This document shows, piece after piece, positions 34,219 to 41,356 of a stretch of 64,000 nt of DNA. Position numbers and translations under genes: made by a program. Source of the stretch: Bacteroidales bacterium (lineage in GTDB: Bacteria; Bacteroidota; Bacteroidia; Bacteroidales; UBA3663); NCBI GenBank assembly GCA_017618715.1, contig JAFZTS010000054.1, forward strand, positions 37,298 through 101,297, in the 5' to 3' direction. Every line of letters begins with the position of its first letter. The first letter of the stretch is position 1. The notes under the pieces were generated by a model, which did not search any database, was not told the DNA's origin, and saw only the letters and a list, made by a program, of their open reading frames with translations.

Positions 34219-34302
34219 AGGCGAATGAATTATGGGTTGTTATTTTGTTAGTCTAAATGTGTCGCTTCTATTATAACAACAAATGAATTCATTGATATTT
34301 TG

Positions 34303-34450
34303 GTGAAAATGGCCTCGTCTCTCGCTCCAATAGCGGAGACTTGGCCGGATGGATTTTATGCCCGAAGGGCAATTTTATGCAGGTATTGGACCTGCTCATT
34401 TTCCGGCAGCCTGGCTCGGCTATTGATGCCAGAGCCGCTGCCATTTTCAC
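34303..34450 (-). other. Structured dyad element, short copy, in the leader of the 34218 operon
   Basis: GTGAAAATGGC...GCCATTTTCAC terminal inverted repeat, 4 internal hairpins; homologous to 37313-37592; TATATTTG on minus strand at 34512-34519. Confidence 0.8.
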
Positions 34451-34758
34451 TCTTCTTTCAAAGTTTTTGGGTCATGTTTTATCGTTTTCGTTTCTATTGA
34501 AATATACGCTGCAAATATACGAAAAATGTTTATGAAATCGGCCTGATTATTGAATTATTGTTAAAACATTCCCCCCCATCGCCGCAATAATGTAACCTTT
34601 TGCTTTACATAGTTGTCAAAATGTTTGCAAAGTATTTGAGGCAATATTGTAAAAAAATGCTGAATTTCTACGAATTAATGATGAAAAAAACGCACAAATA
34701 TTGGATTATTCAAAAAAATGATATATCTTTGCTGCGAGAAAACCAATAAATCAACAAT

Positions 34759-37155
34759 ATGAAGAACCAATCCTTATTCAGAAATCTGGCCGGCATCATG
34801 ATGCTGGGTCTATTCTGCCACGCACAGGGGCAGACCGTCGAGTTCATGACTCCCGACATCGTGCGTATCACCAAGACGGCTGACGGTCAGAAGGTTAAGA
34901 AGCAATCGCTCGTAGTAATTGCCCAACCCGAAGTCGTGAAAGTGAAGGTGAGCGAGGCCAACGGCAAGAAACGCTATCAGTCGAAGGCGCTGACCGTCAC
35001 CGTTGATGAGAGCAACGGCCAGGTCACCTTCTGCAAGCCCGACGAGACCGTTCTGCTCGTCGATGCTGGCAGTAGCTTCATCCCCATCACCGAGGGCATC
35101 GACAAGGGCGCGTACAAGGTGAAGCAATCGTTCGCGCTCGAAAAGAATGAACCCATCTACGGCTTGGGCATGCTGCAGAACGGAAAGATGAATCTGCGCG
35201 GTGAACACCGCAACATGCAGCAGTCGAACCTTGAGGACTATGCCCACTTCTTCCAGAGCATCAAGGGCTATGGCGTATTCTGGGACAACTACTCTCCCAC
35301 CCGTATCGACGACGACGAGCAGCTCACCCTCGTGTCCGAAGTCGGCAAGCTCGTTGACTATTACTTCATCTATGGCGGTTCGGCCGATGGCGTCATCAGC
35401 CGTATGCGTCAACTGTCGGGACATGTTCCGATGCTTCCGCTTTGGACCTACGGCTTCCACCAGAGCCGCGAACGCTACAAGAGCCAGAACGAGCTGCTCG
35501 AAGTGGTGCGCAAGTATCGCGAGCTTAAGGTTCCCTTCGATGGCATCATCCAGGACTGGCAATATTGGGGCAGCAACTACACCTGGAATGCGATGGAGTT
35601 CATCAGCCCTGAATTTTCCCGCGCTCAGGCGATGATCGACGAGGTGCATCAGCGCAATGCCCACATCAGCATCTCCATCTGGGCAAGTTTCGGACCGATG
35701 TCCAAACCCTACCGTGAGCTCGACGAGAAGGGCCTGCTGTTCCACTTCAAGACTTGGCCCGAGTCGGGATTGGAGCCTTGGCCACCACGCCTTGACTATC
35801 CTTCGGGAGTGCGCGTCTATGACTGCTATTCGCCCGAGGCACGCGACATCTATTGGAAGCACCTGTCACGCCTGCACCAGATGGGCATCGATGCCTGGTG
35901 GATGGATTCGACCGACCCCGATCACGCCCAGTACAAGGACAGTGACCTCGACGAAGCTTGCGCCATGGGCAGTTGGCGTTCGGTGCGCAACGTATTCCCA
36001 TTGATGACCGTGGGCGGCGTGGACGAGCACCAGCGTGCCGTCGATACGCAGAAGCGACCCTTCATCCTCACCCGTTCGTTCTTTGCCGGACAGCAGCGCT
36101 ACGGTGCCAATACTTGGAGCGGCGACGTGGGCAGTTCGTGGGAGAGCTTGCGCAAGCAGGTGCCGCTTTGCCTGAATTATACGCTTTGCGCCGCGCCCCA
36201 TGTCAACACCGACATCGGCGGATTCTTCGCCAACAGCTATAATCGCCGCAGTGCCGACAACTCGGCCACCAAGAACCCGCAGTTCCAGGAGCTCTATGTG
36301 CGCTGGATGCAGTTCGGCCTGTTCTGCCCCATGATGCGCAGCCACGGCACGGAGGTCTATCGCGAACTCTATTATTACGGCAAGGAGGGCGAGCCCGTCT
36401 ATGATGCGCTGGTTTCGGCCGTCAAGATGCGCTATCGTCTGCTGCCCTACATCTACAGCCAGAGCTGGCAGGTGAGCCGCAACGACGATTCGTTCATGCG
36501 CGCCCTGGTGATGGATTTCGCCAACGACGAGAACGTGTGGAACCTTGGCCGCGAATACATGTTCGGCCACAACCTGCTCGTTTGCCCCGTGGTCGATCCG
36601 CTCTTCACGCAGGAGAAGATTGTGAAGACCGACGAGATGTCGGGTTGGGATCAGAAGGACAATGATGAGTATGCCAATGGTTGGCCGAAGGTGGATTGGA
36701 GCCAGAAGAAGGAATTCGAGGTCTATCTGCCGAAGGGTGCCGACTGGTACGACTATTGGACCGGGACCAAACTGCAGGGCGGGCAGAAGCTCTTGGCCGA
36801 TGCGCCCCTCGCCCATTCCCCACTCTACGTCAAGGCTGGTTCGATTCTTCCGATGGGACAGGATTTGCAGTATTCCAACGAAAAGCCGTGGGACAACATC
36901 ACGCTGACCGTCTATCCTGGACAGAATGCCACGTTCTGCCTCTATGAGGACGAGGGCGACGGCTTCGGCTACCAGCAGGGCCAGTACACCGAAATCCCGA
37001 TGACTTGGAATGAACGCAGCCGCACGCTCACCATCGGTGCCCGCAAAGGCCAGTTCGAGGGAATGCTCGCCCAGCGCACCTTCCTCGTCCGCATGGTCGG
37101 CGGTGAGGCTAAGCCTGTCACCTATTCGGGAAAGAAGGTGAGCATCAAGCTTTGA
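34759..37155 (+). CDS. GH31 glycoside hydrolase (alpha-xylosidase-like)
   Basis: IIQDWQYWG, WWMDSTDP nucleophile motif, WSGDV, TDIGGF, RSHG, LYEDEGD; TATCTTTG at 34724-34731. Confidence 0.92.
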   Translation: MKNQSLFRNLAGIMMLGLFCHAQGQTVEFMTPDIVRITKTADGQKVKKQSLVVIAQPEVVKVKVSEANGKKRYQSKALTVTVDESNGQVTFCKPDETVLLVDAGSSFIPITEGIDKGAYKVKQSFALEKNEPIYGLGMLQNGKMNLRGEHRNMQQSNLEDYAHFFQSIKGYGVFWDNYSPTRIDDDEQLTLVSEVGKLVDYYFIYGGSADGVISRMRQLSGHVPMLPLWTYGFHQSRERYKSQNELLEVVRKYRELKVPFDGIIQDWQYWGSNYTWNAMEFISPEFSRAQAMIDEVHQRNAHISISIWASFGPMSKPYRELDEKGLLFHFKTWPESGLEPWPPRLDYPSGVRVYDCYSPEARDIYWKHLSRLHQMGIDAWWMDSTDPDHAQYKDSDLDEACAMGSWRSVRNVFPLMTVGGVDEHQRAVDTQKRPFILTRSFFAGQQRYGANTWSGDVGSSWESLRKQVPLCLNYTLCAAPHVNTDIGGFFANSYNRRSADNSATKNPQFQELYVRWMQFGLFCPMMRSHGTEVYRELYYYGKEGEPVYDALVSAVKMRYRLLPYIYSQSWQVSRNDDSFMRALVMDFANDENVWNLGREYMFGHNLLVCPVVDPLFTQEKIVKTDEMSGWDQKDNDEYANGWPKVDWSQKKEFEVYLPKGADWYDYWTGTKLQGGQKLLADAPLAHSPLYVKAGSILPMGQDLQYSNEKPWDNITLTVYPGQNATFCLYEDEGDGFGYQQGQYTEIPMTWNERSRTLTIGARKGQFEGMLAQRTFLVRMVGGEAKPVTYSGKKVSIKL

Positions 37156-37312
37156 AGATAGAGTTTTTTCACGTCGAAAACCGCCTTTTTTGACCATTTG
37201 CTGCATTTTTTTCCAAAAGAATTTGGAATTAATCCGATTTTGGCATATATTTGCAGTGCAATTTCGACAAAACTCGAAACACATAACCGATAATAATACT
37301 TCGTAACTCAAG

Positions 37313-37592
37313 GTGAAAATGGCAGACAACCTCGGCCCAATGGCCTGGTTGTTTCTGCCGGAAAATGAGCAGGTCCAATACCTGCAAAAAATTGCTGCGC
37401 AGAAAATCCATCCGGCTCCAAACAATTCAGGGTGTAGTCCCCAAAAAACTTGACCGTGTAGTCCCTAAAACAGCTTGACCGGAACCCGCATTATTTTCTG
37501 CACGAAGTGCAATTTTCTGCTGCCATTGAGGCAGCACATTTTCCGGATTTAGAGACGGGCTATTGAAGCCCACGTCTCAAATCCATTTTCAC
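37313..37592 (+). other. Structured dyad element, full copy, in the leader of the LRR gene
   Basis: GTGAAAATGG...CCATTTTCAC terminal inverted repeat, nested stems and side hairpins; TATATTTG at 37246-37253. Confidence 0.85.
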
Positions 37593-37652
37593 AAGGATAT
37601 CAAAAAAATAAACCGCCAAAACTACAAACCTAAAAATAAAAACCAAATTATT

Positions 37653-38495
37653 ATGAAAAACTTTACATGTTCAATCGTGAAAGCCGCAGGCATCGCAATG
37701 GCCTGCTGGTTCCTCCCCTCTCTGGGCTTGGCCTCCGTCGAGGTCAATGGAGTGTATTATGATCTGGATGAGGCTGACCAGACTGCCGTCGTGGTTGCCA
37801 ATCCCGACAAATATGTCGGCACTGTGAACATCCCCGGCGACATCACCGTCGATGGCAAGACCTATCTCGTTACCGCCATCGCCGACTGTGCCTTCATCGA
37901 CAACTACGACCTCGAACAGGTCTATATGGAGTCCTCCAATCTGACTAAAATCGGCTTCAGCGCCTTCGAGCGTTGCTACTCGCTGAACAGCGTCACACTA
38001 CCCGAGGGCTTGAAATTCTTCAACTACGAAGCCTTCAAGGACTGCCGCAGCCTGGAGCGTGTCCAGCTGCCCAGCACGCTGGAGCACATCGGCGGCCGCT
38101 CGTTCATGAATTGCGTCAGCCTGACAAAGATCAATGTCCCCGAGTCAGCCGCTTATCTCGGCAACAAGTGGTTGTATGACTGCCCCTTGATCGTCCTCGT
38201 AGCCGATAGCCAGGAACCTCTGAAACTCAAGGAAGACCCCTTCGAGGGACTCGACAAGGATGCCTGCATCCTCAGCGTACCCGAGGGCTGCAAGGAAGCC
38301 TATCAGGCAGCAAAAGTCTGGAAAGACTTCCTGATCTTCGAGAACTATGACGAGGGTGGCACCACCGCCATCGAAAGCATCAGCGACCAGAGCCCCGCTT
38401 CCCGTCAGATCTTCGACCTCCAGGGCCGTCGCCTGAACAATGCTTCCCGCCACTCGATCATCATCGAGAACGGACGGAAGCGCATTGAGTGGTAG
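37653..38495 (+). CDS. BspA-type LRR protein with T9SS CTD
   Basis: Start MKNFTCS; VEVNGVYY.L, IPGDITVDGKTY.VTAI, LPEGL..F...AFKDC, IFDLQGRRL. Confidence 0.85.
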   Translation: MKNFTCSIVKAAGIAMACWFLPSLGLASVEVNGVYYDLDEADQTAVVVANPDKYVGTVNIPGDITVDGKTYLVTAIADCAFIDNYDLEQVYMESSNLTKIGFSAFERCYSLNSVTLPEGLKFFNYEAFKDCRSLERVQLPSTLEHIGGRSFMNCVSLTKINVPESAAYLGNKWLYDCPLIVLVADSQEPLKLKEDPFEGLDKDACILSVPEGCKEAYQAAKVWKDFLIFENYDEGGTTAIESISDQSPASRQIFDLQGRRLNNASRHSIIIENGRKRIEW

Positions 38496-38521
38496 GAATA
38501 TATAAAGATTCGAGAATAAAC

Positions 38522-38551
38522 AAAGGCCCGCACCAATTGGTGCGGGCCTTT
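38522..38551. terminator. Bidirectional terminator (perfect 30-bp palindrome)
   Basis: aaaggcccgcaccaattggtgcgggccttt between convergent genes. Confidence 0.85.
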
Positions 38552-38613
38552 TTATTTCGCCTCCCAGTGCCCCGTTTTTTTCTAAGCAACCGTCGGTCAC
38601 CACCACGTCACCA

Positions 38614-41016: not shown

Positions 41017-41036
41017 GACATCCTTGTTTTGGGGGG

Positions 41037-41138
41037 CGCTGCGCTCAAAATCCAACAAAATAAATATTAAAATCTTACAATGGCTTCGTCCTTCTTGATG
41101 GATTTTTGATAATATTTAGAGAGATTTTGAGCGAAGCG
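41037..41138. other. About 100-nt imperfect hairpin in the 5' leader of the 41016 gene
   Basis: cgctgcgctcaaaatc...taaatatt / aatattta...gattttgagcgaagcg; TATATTTG on minus strand at 41177-41184. Confidence 0.6.
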
Positions 41139-41356
41139 ACCACTCATGATATTTCGGCTTGTCGAAATGGACGGGGCAAATATAACTATTTTTTTTGAAA
41201 ATAGGTGCAATTAGGTTATAAAAATGCGAGAATTTTGCTTGAATGAGCTATTTTGAACACGAATTAGCATGTAATTTACATGAATAAAAGACTGAAATTT
41301 GGATTGGAATGAAAAACAACGTACCTTTGCGGCCAAGAACACCTTTACATTTATAT

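What the first reader, a model, noticed from the sequence alone, without database searches (positions are those of the whole stretch)
37313..37592. Dyad-symmetric, covarying multi-hairpin element in the leader of a T9SS cargo gene
Seen: each end, read inward on its own strand, follows GTGAAAATGG-[hairpin, CAAT loop]-CCGGAAAATG-[hairpin, YCAAT loop]-GCAxAAAATTGC-...-GCAGAAAAT. The linkers pair across the element (37313-22/37583-92, 37358-67/37537-46, 37384-95/37509-20 with one mismatch, 37399-407/37493-501). The side hairpins differ in stem sequence (gcaggt/acctgc vs gctgcc/ggcagc) but keep pairing and loop motif. A single strand would form a rod of stacked four-way junctions with CAAU loops on one side and complementary AUUG loops on the other. 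It lies 60 nt after a TATATTTG promoter element and 60 nt before the LRR gene ATG. Inference: a structured 5'-UTR/ncRNA, possibly multimerising through kissing loops, or a non-autonomous ssDNA-recognised mobile or invertible element. I do not recognise it as a described family.
Basis: partly seen in the sequence, partly recalled or inferred. Interest (0 to 1): 0.88.

Follow-up and report, generated by a model that had tools for sequence, protein, structure and literature searches.

The report
Hairpin repeat riding an IS110 shell
The 280-base dyad is real, but it is one copy of a multi-copy mobile DNA repeat of one rumen Bacteroidales genus, sitting behind a promoter inside the worn ends of an RNA-guided (IS110-type) insertion sequence, and not a dedicated regulatory RNA of the LRR gene.

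Summary
Window 37313-37592 is a dyad of two ~100-nt arms. Each arm reads GTGAAAATGG, hairpin 1, CCGGAAAATG, hairpin 2, AAAATTGC, hairpin 3, GCAGAAAAT, with CAAT loops and covarying stems. It matches no Rfam family.

It is not specific to this gene. The MAG holds 27 full and 7 partial arms at 22 places. The motif occurs in 63 loci of 8 rumen assemblies, in at least 9 of 39 genomes of the genus, and in none of 397 sampled genomes from other genera.

Close relatives have empty sites. Downstream genes are unrelated in function.

Most doublets lie between a ~55-nt leader ('alpha') that starts 3 nt after a TAnnTTTG promoter box and an end reading ..GTTATATAGAAG. Both are the left and right ends of IS110-family insertion sequences found in rumen metagenomes. 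The non-coding RNA of one subfamily carries a guide, UUUGCAG, matching that promoter box. A sister subfamily is found twice inserted in the hairpin-3 loop of an arm.

So the element is passenger DNA of a non-autonomous, promoter-targeted IS110 derivative. This copy has lost its right end, and it is co-transcribed as 5' leader.

How the arms themselves arose, and why their stems are kept, remains open. I rate it a new variant of a known kind, of moderate interest.

The parts
37157..38497 (+). Cassette (promoter, alpha leader, doublet, LRR gene) that is missing between the GH31 stop codon and the shared terminator in two close relatives
   Evidence: In G015:C47 and G024:C9 the flanks align at 91-95% identity but this stretch is absent. 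G015 has 52 nt there. G024 has 311 nt of a different repeat.
37246..37253 (+). Bacteroidota-type -7 promoter box TATATTTG. It is followed by C-AG (37254-56), the position where alpha-type IS110 elements and their derivatives begin.
   Evidence: 24 of 26 alpha-flanked arms are preceded by TAnnTTTGCAG. The -7 consensus itself is recalled knowledge.
37257..37312 (+). Alpha-like leader: a diverged remnant of the left end of a promoter-targeted IS110-family element
   Evidence: It is 62% identical to the left end of the autonomous alpha-type IS (L184). Other copies are 57-83% identical, median 72%. The left end of the IS was read.
37313..37412 (+). Left arm: terminus GTGAAAATGG; hairpin 1 at 37323-57 (5'-side bulge, CAAT loop); CCGGAAAATG; hairpin 2 at 37369-85; AAAATTGC, hairpin 3 at 37393-401, GCAGAAAAT
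   Evidence: nhmmer with the family profile, E 1e-23. Structure.
37413..37488 (.). Central spacer, unique to this copy, with an imperfect 24-nt direct repeat (37420-43 / 37444-67)
   Evidence: D2. BLAST of the spacer finds only itself in the genome and one 22-nt chance-level match in the 63 foreign loci.
37489..37592 (-). Right arm. It has the same architecture read inward on the minus strand, with different stem sequences (hairpin 1 of the ATTTGAGAC type, hairpin 2 of the GCTGCC type).
   Evidence: nhmmer E 2e-26.
37593..37613 (+). Remnant of the 'beta1' outer flank (AAGGATATCAAAAAAATAAAC). The ..GTTATATAGAAG right end that follows it in canonical copies is missing here.
37653..38495 (+). Downstream gene: 280-aa secreted-looking BspA-type LRR protein
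   Evidence: Pfam LRR_5, E 3e-22; translation. Paralogues in G043:C29 and G045:C59 have the alpha-like leader without the doublet.
34265..34519 (-). Second, canonical family member in the window. On the minus strand it reads promoter (34512-19), AG, alpha, full arm, hairpin-1-only arm, and a right-end-like terminus (..TTGTTATAATAGAAG, two differences from the consensus). It lies upstream of the 210-aa gene 34218-33586.
41035..41190 (-). Alpha leader behind a promoter, here carrying a different passenger: the REP2 inverted-repeat element with TIR GGTCGCWTMGCTCAAAAT (41035-41142)

Best explanation
The dyad is a copy of a dispersed, genus-restricted DNA repeat, which I call a 'doublet': two inverted ~100-nt arms built of conserved linkers and covarying hairpins.

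In its canonical form the doublet is the passenger of a ~340-nt non-autonomous derivative of an IS110-family (DEDD, bridge-RNA) insertion sequence. That unit has the first ~55 nt of the IS left end ('alpha') on one side and the last ~12-40 nt of the IS right end (..GTTATATAGAAG) on the other.

Shown: the unit is inserted without target duplication, with AG at both junctions, exactly behind the -7 promoter box (TAnnTTTGC-AG|). This is the site that matches the left target guide (UUUGCAG) in the non-coding RNA of the autonomous alpha-type IS.

Inferred: the unit is moved in trans by that recombinase and its bridge RNA, and copies then decay by deletion.

In the window, the LRR gene's leader carries such a copy. 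The promoter, the AG and a diverged alpha are retained, and the right end is lost. Shown: the doublet separates promoter and gene. Inferred: it is transcribed as a strongly folded 5' leader, leaving a 60-nt A-rich unstructured stretch before the ATG.

The arms also provide the natural landing site of a sister IS110 subfamily ('gamma'). Its guide matches the hairpin-3 region, and it is found inserted in that loop in two independent doublets (shown).

Why the stems are maintained is inferred only. Either they must extrude as hairpins to be recognised, as a target stem-loop is for ISPpu10, or they are kept by the template-switch repair that any palindrome undergoes. I do not think the element has a function dedicated to the LRR gene.
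For: Copy number. There are 37 BLAST matches at 22 places in the 3.0-Mb MAG. Exact GTGAAAATGG occurs 36 times against ~5.7 expected, and 32 of the 36 are followed by family hairpins. The profile search finds 27 full and 7 partial arms. The exact motif occurs in 63 loci of 8 rumen Bacteroidales/Prevotellaceae assemblies, which hold 143 arm hits. These make 61 doublets, median length 239 nt, and 43 single arms.

Patchy, narrow distribution. Arm matches occur in at least 9 of 39 genomes of the genus. In the order-wide sample, 2 of 401 genomes match, both of the own genus, and 0 of 397 genomes from 235 other genera match.

Empty sites. At the C18 locus, 4 of 4 relatives with both flanks (G015, G024, G010, G045) read TAnnTTTGCA|CC.. 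where G000 has 341 nt of alpha, doublet and ..TTATATAGAAG. At C12:123602, G045 and G010 have a 95-nt promoter-to-ATG stretch, while G015 and G024 have the same alpha shell with a different passenger. At C14:12081, G000 keeps a solo alpha plus GTGAAAAT where 5 of 5 relatives have none. The window cassette is absent in 2 of 2 relatives. Three of 4 paralogous LRR leaders lack the doublet.

IS110 link. An LE-like flank (alpha or gamma) is present on 40 of 61 doublets, the right-end motif on 27 of 61, and neither on 14 of 61. 24 of 26 alpha flanks follow TAnnTTTGCAG, and they are 57-83% identical to the left end of the autonomous alpha-type IS. Three autonomous copies (L182-184) sit at three different TAnnTTTGCAG sites. 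The transposase has DEDD_Tnp_IS110 and Transposase_20 domains. The ..GTTATATAGAAG end is shared by 37 of 39 IS copies inspected.

Guides. In 11 of 13 IS copies, the 7-mer at a fixed position of the 5' non-coding RNA equals the 7 nt to the left of the insertion. This holds across six different target 7-mers. The other 2 copies differ by one base. That is the behaviour published for the left target guide (PMC11208160, section 7, passages read).

Landing pad. The gamma-type IS is inserted at the same position, the hairpin-3 loop of the right arm, in two different doublets: L072/L100 and L179.

Downstream genes are unrelated: ketoacyl synthase, GH115, GH28, U32 peptidase, alpha-amylase, GDSL lipase, DUF3836, the LRR protein, and 3 without any family.
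Against: This particular copy lacks the ..GTTATATAGAAG end, and its alpha is the most diverged class (62%). Its IS110 ancestry is therefore by homology to the family, not shown directly.

The LRR paralogues differ from it by the doublet alone. That fits independent gain or loss of the doublet as well as it fits decay of a whole unit.

No alpha-type or gamma-type transposase was found in G000, which is 78% complete. The alpha type was found in none of the 39 genus genomes. It is known only from metagenome contigs of unknown host. MAGs usually lose multi-copy IS elements, so this is weak evidence either way.

14 of 61 doublets have no recognisable shell.

Nothing in the IS110 mechanism requires the passenger to be a hairpin array. 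The conserved CAAT loops, the GAAAAT linkers and the constant 5'-side bulge of hairpin 1 point to a recognising factor that I did not find.

Mobilisation in trans, circle formation and transcription were not observed. RNA-library contigs contain arms, but with no enrichment over DNA runs.
Confidence: 0.7

Rival explanations
1. The doublet is an independent mobile element: a foldback MITE or REPIN-like repeat with ~100-bp structured terminal inverted repeats. An unidentified transposase moves it by recognising the hairpins (as ssDNA or cruciform) or the repeated GAAAAT sites. Its frequent position inside IS110 shells is secondary, from insertion preference or hitch-hiking. This is compatible with the main explanation for the shell; the two differ only on what moves the doublet.
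For: The termini GTGAAAATGG/CCATTTTCAC are perfect inverted repeats and contain TG..CA. The doublet occurs in alpha shells, in gamma shells, next to REP2 ends, and with no shell in 14 of 61 cases. The LRR paralogues differ by the doublet alone. Shells without a doublet exist at C51:24141 and C14:12081. At one orthologous promoter, three relatives carry three different passengers in the same shell. Loops, linkers and the bulge position are conserved while stems vary. G-T pairs are commoner on the arm's own strand: 32 against 12 in hairpin 1.
Against: I saw no consistent target-site duplication at doublet ends (by eye, not counted). No pair of arms encloses a transposase other than the IS110 that had inserted into an arm. 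A Y1/RAYT gene was found in 1 of 5 doublet-bearing genomes, and it is flanked by unrelated GC-rich hairpins. The hairpin-1 type is linked to the type of outer flank, as expected if flank and arm spread together. The G-T asymmetry counts related sequences and is absent in hairpin 2, at 2 against 2.
Confidence: 0.2
2. The arms are functional RNA: a cis-acting leader or an sRNA-like module whose CAAU-loop hairpins bind a protein or another RNA (a sponge, kissing-loop multimers, or a stabiliser or processing site). Selection on the RNA keeps the stems.
For: LE-side arms always lie just downstream of a promoter and in the sense orientation. The fold is very stable, z -8.1. Stem covariation with conserved loops is strong. 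G-T pairs on LE-side arms are 11 on the transcribed sense against 3. Contigs of two RNA libraries contain arm sequence.
Against: Downstream genes share no function. Copies lie after stop codons or between convergent genes. Close relatives show presence and absence at the same site. The element is restricted to part of one genus. Right arms keep the same architecture and CAAT loops on the non-transcribed strand, and their G-T counts are not reversed (5 against 3). There is no Rfam match. In RNA libraries the ratio of arm depth to flank depth (12-38) is lower than in DNA runs (160-390), and contigs cannot show transcription.
Confidence: 0.08
3. It is an invertible (phase-variable) switch controlling the LRR surface protein.
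For: It has inverted repeats next to a promoter of a surface-protein gene, in a phylum rich in invertons (recalled). 'Opposite strands' joints appear in all four runs laid.
Against: The promoter lies outside the inverted repeats, so inverting a near-palindrome would change nothing. The joint 37369/37538 reads as an arm with the other hairpin-2 type. Such mosaic arms exist as ordinary family members, for example C32:15053. No recombinase gene lies beside the element (ORF list only).
Confidence: 0.02

Closest known systems
IS110-family bridge-RNA elements and their non-autonomous modules (IS621; ISPpu9 with its ssr9 module; ISPpu10)
   Same: The shell around the doublets has the left and right ends of IS110-family elements. 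It has no terminal inverted repeats and no target duplication, and the same dinucleotide (AG) stands at both junctions. Insertion is sequence-specific and matches a guide in the IS's 5' non-coding RNA (PMC11208160, passages read). A transposase-less module that spreads on the IS110 enzyme is described for ssr9 of ISPpu9 (PMC12288879, abstract read). IS110 elements that land in repeated palindromes, with a target stem-loop as an extra specificity determinant, are described for ISPpu9 and ISPpu10 (PMC12288879 and 10.64898/2026.03.19.712850, abstracts read).
   Different: The target here is the Bacteroidota -7 promoter box, so the integrated element is read from a host promoter. By contrast, IS621 loci express their RNA weakly (PMC13626964, abstract read). 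The passenger is a 240-280-nt hairpin-array palindrome that carries no guides. That passenger is itself the target of a sister subfamily. No transposition was observed.
REP / REPIN / BIME elements of proteobacteria (recalled)
   Same: Both are short extragenic palindromes present in tens of copies, usually as inverted doublets. Both are mosaics of a few module types, confined to a lineage, and favoured targets of IS110-family elements.
   Different: The arms here are ~100 nt with three hairpins and conserved loops, not single 20-40-nt palindromes. They have no GTAG-type 5' tetranucleotide. No associated RAYT was found: 1 of 5 genomes has a Y1 transposase, and it is flanked by other hairpins. 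They sit mainly in 5' leaders, not 3' ends.
Co-transcribed MITEs such as Correia elements of Neisseria, BOX and RUP of pneumococci, ERIC, and BrickBuilt of Porphyromonas gingivalis (all recalled; only titles of two P. gingivalis genome papers seen)
   Same: They are small, have inverted-repeat ends, occur in many copies, are modular, are inserted between promoter and gene, and are transcribed into a long hairpin that can alter mRNA fate.
   Different: No target-site duplication and no parent IS with the same ends were found here. The outer shell follows IS110 logic. The side hairpins have conserved CAAT loops.
Integron attC sites (recalled)
   Same: The logic is the same: structure is conserved (imperfect hairpin, bulged bases on one side) while the stem sequence varies freely.
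   Different: There are no R/L boxes, no integron integrase nearby, and no cassette array. Membership was not seriously testable and is not claimed.

Membership tests
Any Rfam 15 family | Covariance-model match at or near the gathering score | tested here: not met
   One search scanned 36800-38100 on both strands, up to E 10. The only overlapping hit is PVT1_3 at 11.1 bits (gathering 45), which is noise. One search also found nothing for the IS 5' region.
Non-autonomous IS110-family derivative | Ends homologous to the left and right ends of an autonomous IS110-family element | tested here: inconclusive
   For the family this is met. Alpha flanks are 57-83% identical to the left end of L184, and the ..GTTATATAGAAG motif (up to 2 mismatches) lies beside 27 of 61 doublets. 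For this copy the left end is present (62%) and the right end is absent.
Non-autonomous IS110-family derivative | Insertion without TIR or TSD, same core dinucleotide at both junctions, and an empty site in relatives | tested here: met
   Shown for the C18 copy, which reads TTTGC-AG-[..]-AG-CC, with 4 of 4 relatives empty. The window copy keeps only the left junction (TTTGC-AG).
Non-autonomous IS110-family derivative | Target matches the left target guide of the cognate bridge RNA | tested here: met
   The alpha-type guide AAUUUGCAG compares with the window's left flank ATTTGCAG. Guide equals target over 7 nt in 11 of 13 IS copies, with six distinct targets.
Non-autonomous IS110-family derivative | Mobilisation by the recombinase (circles, new insertions) | not testable with these tools
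   This needs experiments or read-level junction searches.
Bridge RNA (is the doublet itself one?) | Two internal loops carrying guides to target and donor | tested here: not met
   The guides lie in the IS 5' RNA at +161/168 and +215/221. The arms have only 1-3-nt bulges. The family profile finds no arm within the non-coding leader of any of the 80 IS loci; the only arm hit, in L179, lies in the host doublet outside the IS.
REP/REPIN with RAYT | Inverted doublets of a palindromic unit, many copies, extragenic | tested here: met
REP/REPIN with RAYT | A RAYT (Y1 transposase) gene flanked by the same repeats | tested here: not met
   PF01797 is present in 1 of 5 doublet-bearing genomes, and that gene has no arm within 1.5 kb. 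The MAGs are incomplete.
Classical TIR MITE | Terminal inverted repeats, under 500 bp, multi-copy | tested here: met
Classical TIR MITE | Target-site duplication, and a parent IS with the same ends | tested here: not met
   I saw no consistent duplication in the flanks (inspected, not counted). No transposase lies between arms except the IS110 that had inserted into an arm.
Invertible promoter switch | Promoter inside the inverted repeats, and both orientations present in reads | tested here: not met
   The promoter lies outside the repeats. The joints are explained by mosaic paralogues.

The most novel reading that the evidence does not exclude
The arms are a new, Bacteroidota-specific class of structure-recognised DNA modules, a 'complex REP'. 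They act as hairpin-gated landing pads for bridge-RNA recombinases. They spread through the genome inside a second IS110 lineage whose bridge RNA is programmed to the phylum's -7 promoter box. Together these form a three-tier parasitic network (promoter, then shell, then passenger, then the next IS) that rewrites the 5' leaders of many genes and gives the integrated element host-driven expression of its guide RNA.
Probability: 0.3. Interest if true: 0.75.

Novelty: new variant of a known kind. Interest (0 to 1): 0.58.

Why it matters
For the LRR gene, the 'structured leader' is an accident of insertion. It should not be annotated as a riboregulator.

For mobile-element biology the family is worth a closer look, for three reasons.

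First, it shows natural IS110/bridge-RNA elements whose guide reads the conserved Bacteroidota promoter box. Integration therefore lands the element exactly at a host transcription start.

Second, it shows transposase-less derivatives that have colonised dozens of promoters in rumen Bacteroidales.

Third, it shows a hairpin-array passenger that is itself the programmed target of a sister IS.

Natural guide-target pairs and target-side stem-loops are of practical interest for bridge-recombinase engineering.

Such insertions also place 250-350 nt of strongly folded RNA into the leaders of glycoside hydrolase and surface-protein genes. That may matter for expression differences between rumen strains.

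Tried and rejected
Rfam scans of the element and of the IS 5' region found nothing.

RNAalifold on the MAFFT alignment of 27 arms gave almost no structure, because MAFFT misaligns the different stem types. I did not build a covariance model. I counted pairs in scripts instead, anchored on the loops.

I considered and rejected a small peptide read from the AGGAGGTGAAAATGG start. The arm types put the shared motifs in different frames, and most hit CAATAG stops (read).

I considered an invertible switch and rejected it (see rivals).

I looked for RAYT/REPIN membership and did not find it.

The G-T strand asymmetry, meant to tell RNA-level from DNA-level selection, was inconclusive. LE-side arms gave 11 against 3, RE-side arms 5 against 3, and hairpin 2 gave 2 against 2.

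The shuffle test of single guide matches is weak on its own: 7 of 9 matches are reached by 16-35% of shuffles. The argument rests on the fixed position and on covariation across copies.

Public runs. 20 listed rows hold part of the stretch. The two RNA libraries laid hold arm-containing contigs and low-depth contigs over part of the LRR gene. Contigs cannot show starts, strand or level, and DNA may be present in such libraries. I draw no expression claim from parts without cover.

The G045 IS110-like gene (L127) has unrelated ends and was dropped.

The C51:24141 shell-without-doublet could not be compared with relatives, because synteny breaks upstream of the promoter.

The G043 match at the C18 locus covers only the left flank, so it was left out of the empty-site count.

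Nothing was folded in 3D, and no complex prediction was run.

Literature. Searches found no description of this repeat or of IS110 targeting TAnnTTTG.

Full report
WHAT IS THERE

Two ~100-nt arms face each other across a 76-nt spacer that is unique to this copy. Read inward on its own strand, each arm is:
- GTGAAAATGG;
- hairpin 1, with a lower stem, a 1-3-nt bulge always on the 5' side, an upper stem and a CAAT loop;
- CCGGAAAATG;
- hairpin 2, with a 6-7-bp stem and a YCAAT loop;
- AAAATTGC, a small hairpin 3, then GCAGAAAAT.

As one RNA strand it folds into the predicted rod with side hairpins. The energy is -108.1 kcal/mol, z -8.1 against 200 shuffles. No Rfam family matches.

The -7-type promoter box TATATTTG lies 59 nt upstream. 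The ATG of a 280-aa BspA-type LRR protein lies 60 nt downstream. No T9SS C-terminal domain model hit that protein.

IT IS A REPEAT FAMILY

The window lies in a 3.0-Mb, 87-contig MAG that is 78% complete.
- BLAST finds 37 matches at 22 places.
- The exact 10-mer terminus occurs 36 times against ~5.7 expected, and 32 of these are followed by the family's hairpins.
- A profile of the arms finds 27 full and 7 partial arms.
- The exact three-motif pattern occurs in 63 loci of 8 assemblies, all rumen 'Bacteroidales' or 'Prevotellaceae' MAGs. These hold 143 arm hits.
- Pooled, there are 61 doublets (median 239 nt, range 131-399) and 43 single arms.
- Arm matches are seen in at least 9 of the 39 genomes of the genus (that table was cut, so this is a lower bound).
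- In the order-wide sample, 2 of 401 genomes match. Both belong to the own genus. None of 397 genomes from 235 other genera match.

COVARIATION IS REAL, AND THE MODULES ARE SHUFFLED

Arms combine about six hairpin-1 stems, about six hairpin-2 stems and several hairpin-3 stems in many combinations.
- All 66 unique hairpin-1 sequences have CAAT in the loop. 46 of 52 unique hairpin-2 loops are YCAAT. There are 18 distinct hairpin-2 helices.
- In 49 unique hairpin-2 sequences, 97.3% of stem cells pair, against 57.3 +/- 3.4% after shuffling the 3' halves. None of 2000 shuffles reaches the observed value. The sequences are paralogues, so this is not a probability.
- G-T pairs are commoner on the arm's own strand in hairpin 1 (32 against 12) but not in hairpin 2 (2 against 2).
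- Splitting arms by side did not discriminate RNA-level from DNA-level selection.

NOT A REGULON

Genes downstream of promoter-proximal copies are a ketoacyl synthase, GH115, GH28, a U32 peptidase, an alpha-amylase, a GDSL lipase, DUF3836, the LRR protein and three proteins without a family. Other copies lie between convergent genes or directly after a stop codon.

EMPTY SITES DEFINE A LARGER UNIT

At the C18 locus, G000 reads as follows:
- ..TATCTTTGCA, then GCGTTCATTTCGA.. (55-nt 'alpha' leader) ..AAAAGGAG;
- the doublet;
- CAGAAATAAAACGTTGTTGTTATATAGAAG, then CCAGT..

Four of four relatives read ..TATCTTTGCA|CCCA.. at the same place, with 83-91% identical flanks. The unit is 341 nt. It has no terminal inverted repeat and no target duplication, and it has AG at both junctions (TTTGC-AG-[..]-AG-CC).

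At C12:123602, two relatives have only 95 nt between promoter and ATG. Two others have the same alpha leader and the same right end but a different passenger, the inverted-repeat element I call REP2.

At C14:12081, G000 keeps a solo alpha plus the first 8 nt of an arm, where five of five relatives have nothing. This is a deletion remnant.

In the window itself, the whole stretch 37157-38497 (promoter, alpha, doublet and LRR gene) is missing in the two relatives that share the GH31 flank. Three of four paralogous LRR genes in G043 and G045 have the alpha-like leader without a doublet. The fourth has a fresh short-alpha, doublet and right-end unit inserted ahead of the old leader.

THE ENDS ARE THOSE OF IS110-FAMILY ELEMENTS

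In RGIG7573 (L072 = G015:C63) a 452-aa ORF with DEDD_Tnp_IS110 and Transposase_20 domains interrupts the right arm of a doublet. Its junctions are ..TTTTTTGCGT-AG-[TTCCCATTGCC .. TTGTTATATAGA]-AG-CAATTTTC... That is the loop of hairpin 3.

A scan of metagenome contigs returned 80 relatives at 49-98% identity. Of the 39 I inspected, 37 end in ..GTTATATAGAAG. One is cut by a contig end and one differs.

Three subfamilies matter here.
- 'Gamma' (L072, L154, L179, L187) starts TTCCCATTGCC. It sits at ..TTTTCTGCGN-AG sites, twice inside hairpin 3 of a doublet's right arm (L072/L100 and, independently, L179).
- 'r' (L155-160) sits in the terminal repeat of REP2 (..TTTTGAGCGN-AG|CGACC).
- 'Alpha' (L182-184, 63% identical to gamma) sits at three different TAnnTTTGC-AG| promoter sites. 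It starts CGTCCATTTCGAGAAATCGAAAACAAAAGCGGATAATAACAGGAAGGTG, which is the alpha leader.

The alpha flanks of 26 arms are 57-83% identical to it (median 72%; the window's copy 62%). 24 of the 26 follow TAnnTTTGCAG. An LE-like flank (alpha or gamma) lies beside 40 of 61 doublets, the right-end motif beside 27, and neither beside 14. The hairpin-1 type goes with the flank type, as expected if flank and arm spread together.

THE IS RNA CARRIES THE MATCHING GUIDES

Durrant et al. (PMC11208160, section 7, passages read) report two things. The left target guide and the left donor guide pair with the bottom strand, so they read like the top strand of the left target or left donor plus the core. They lie on the 5' side of the two loops.

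In 13 IS copies, the 7-mer at a fixed place of the 5' non-coding RNA (+161 in alpha, +168 in gamma and r) equals the 7 nt left of the insertion in 11. It differs by one base in the other 2. This holds over six different target 7-mers: TGCGTAG, TGCGAAG, AGCGTAG, AGCGCAG, AGCGAAG and TTTGCAG. About 55 nt further on lies AUAUAGAAG or UUAUAGAAG, which is the right end plus core.

Single matches of this size are not rare by chance in 250 nt. The weight lies in the fixed position and the covariation.

The alpha guide, UUUGCAG, is the second half of the -7 box plus CAG. TTTGCAGCG turns out to be a common promoter continuation in this genome: 100 occurrences, most of them behind TAnn.

READING

The canonical unit is a non-autonomous IS110 derivative. 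It has the first ~55 nt of the left end, a passenger, and the last 12-40 nt of the right end, inserted at the transcription start of host genes.

The left end begins CG.., like the sequence it displaces. The left junction therefore stays a good target, which may explain the tandem units seen at C62 and in L054, L095 and G043 copy 3. This step is inference.

Movement in trans by the alpha-type enzyme and RNA is also inferred. It is in line with the ssr9 module of ISPpu9 (PMC12288879, abstract). The doublet carries no guides, so it is passenger DNA.

It is also the programmed target of the gamma subfamily. The hairpin next to the cut site recalls the target stem-loop that raises the fidelity of ISPpu10 (10.64898/2026.03.19.712850, abstract).

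The window's copy keeps the promoter, the AG, a diverged alpha and 21 nt of the 'beta1' outer flank, but no right end. It is an old, decayed copy, or else a doublet gained or lost on its own.

WHAT STAYS UNEXPLAINED

I do not know where the doublet came from or what reads its CAAT loops, GAAAAT linkers and one-sided bulge.

No transposon has the arms as its ends. A Y1 transposase occurs in 1 of 5 carrier genomes, and it is flanked by other hairpins. No alpha- or gamma-type recombinase is assembled in G000. The alpha type is in none of the 39 genus genomes. This is weak evidence, since MAGs lose repeats.

Palindrome-internal template switching could keep stems paired without selection, but it would not keep the bulges.

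RNA evidence is thin. Contigs of two RNA libraries contain arms, but the ratio of arm depth to unique flank depth is lower than in DNA runs.

COMPARISON AND VERDICT

The element works like a co-transcribed MITE or REPIN sitting in an IS110 shell.
- It is not a member of any Rfam family.
- It is not a RAYT-type REP.
- It is not a classical TIR-and-TSD MITE.
- It is not a bridge RNA.
- It is not an inverton.

The shell meets the sequence-level criteria of an IS110-family derivative. I found no description of this repeat, or of an IS110 guide aimed at TAnnTTTG, in six full-text searches. The supplements of the bridge-RNA papers were closed.

I rate it a new variant of a known kind. It is ordinary as a 'regulatory RNA' candidate, but of real interest to people working on bridge recombinases and on repeats of gut and rumen Bacteroidota.

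Noticed in passing
L182:1150-2700, L183:550-2100, L184:460-2010 (metagenome contigs): These are autonomous IS110-family copies inserted at three different TAnnTTTGC-AG| promoter sites. Their 5' RNA carries AAUUUGCAG at +161. This is a natural bridge-RNA element apparently programmed to the Bacteroidota -7 promoter box, so the integrated copy would be read from a host promoter.
   Followed up: partly
L155-L160 (metagenome contigs): A sister IS110 subfamily (88-89% identical to the L072 enzyme) is always inserted in the terminal repeat of REP2 (..TTTTGAGCGN-AG|CGACC). Its guide base tracks the variable base N of the target (T, C or A).
   Followed up: partly
window 41035-41190 (- strand); also G000 C2:43333, C25:18394/18593, C39:113806, C45:25826, C48:33471, C53:50080, C65:20238/35621, C78:7298: This is a second passenger family, REP2 (~110-190 nt, TIR GGTCGCWTMGCTCAAAAT). 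It sits behind the same alpha leader at about ten promoters. Some versions carry a further repeat with CTACGGACTATATGGACT motifs.
   Followed up: partly
window 34265-34519 (- strand): A canonical unit lies upstream of the 210-aa gene 34218-33586. It reads promoter, AG, alpha, full arm, hairpin-1-only arm and right end.
   Followed up: yes
G000 C14:89511-89610; L132:4262-4340 (G043:C29); L179:115-200: In at least three copies, hairpin 1 is split at its CAAT loop by a ~75-90-nt insert containing GGGGCCCCATTCATGGGGACGGCC-like hairpins. This is a third level of nesting at a fixed position.
   Followed up: no
whole G000 genome: TTTGCAGCG occurs 100 times, mostly as TAnnTTTGCAGCG in front of genes. 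This suggests an extended promoter or start-site consensus in this genus, which the IS guide and the IS left end (CG..) both imitate.
   Followed up: no
window 37157-38497 versus L116:2053-2104 and L115 (rc) 2056-2366: The intergenic space after the GH31 gene is a hot spot. G000 has the LRR cassette there, G024 has a 311-nt mosaic repeat, and G015 has only the shared terminator (window 38522-38553).
   Followed up: partly
L135:1250-2150 (G043:C76): A Y1 (RAYT-like) transposase gene is flanked by GC-rich hairpins (CCCCGAAGGGG and GGGGGTGTAACCCCC types). This is a separate, classical-looking REP system in the same genus.
   Followed up: no
G000 C51:24141 (- strand; L236): This is a shell without a passenger. 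The alpha leader runs straight into ..GATGAAAATATAACGTTGTTTGTTATATAGTAGC and is followed by a second alpha-like start. It is a possible minimal form of the non-autonomous unit.
   Followed up: partly
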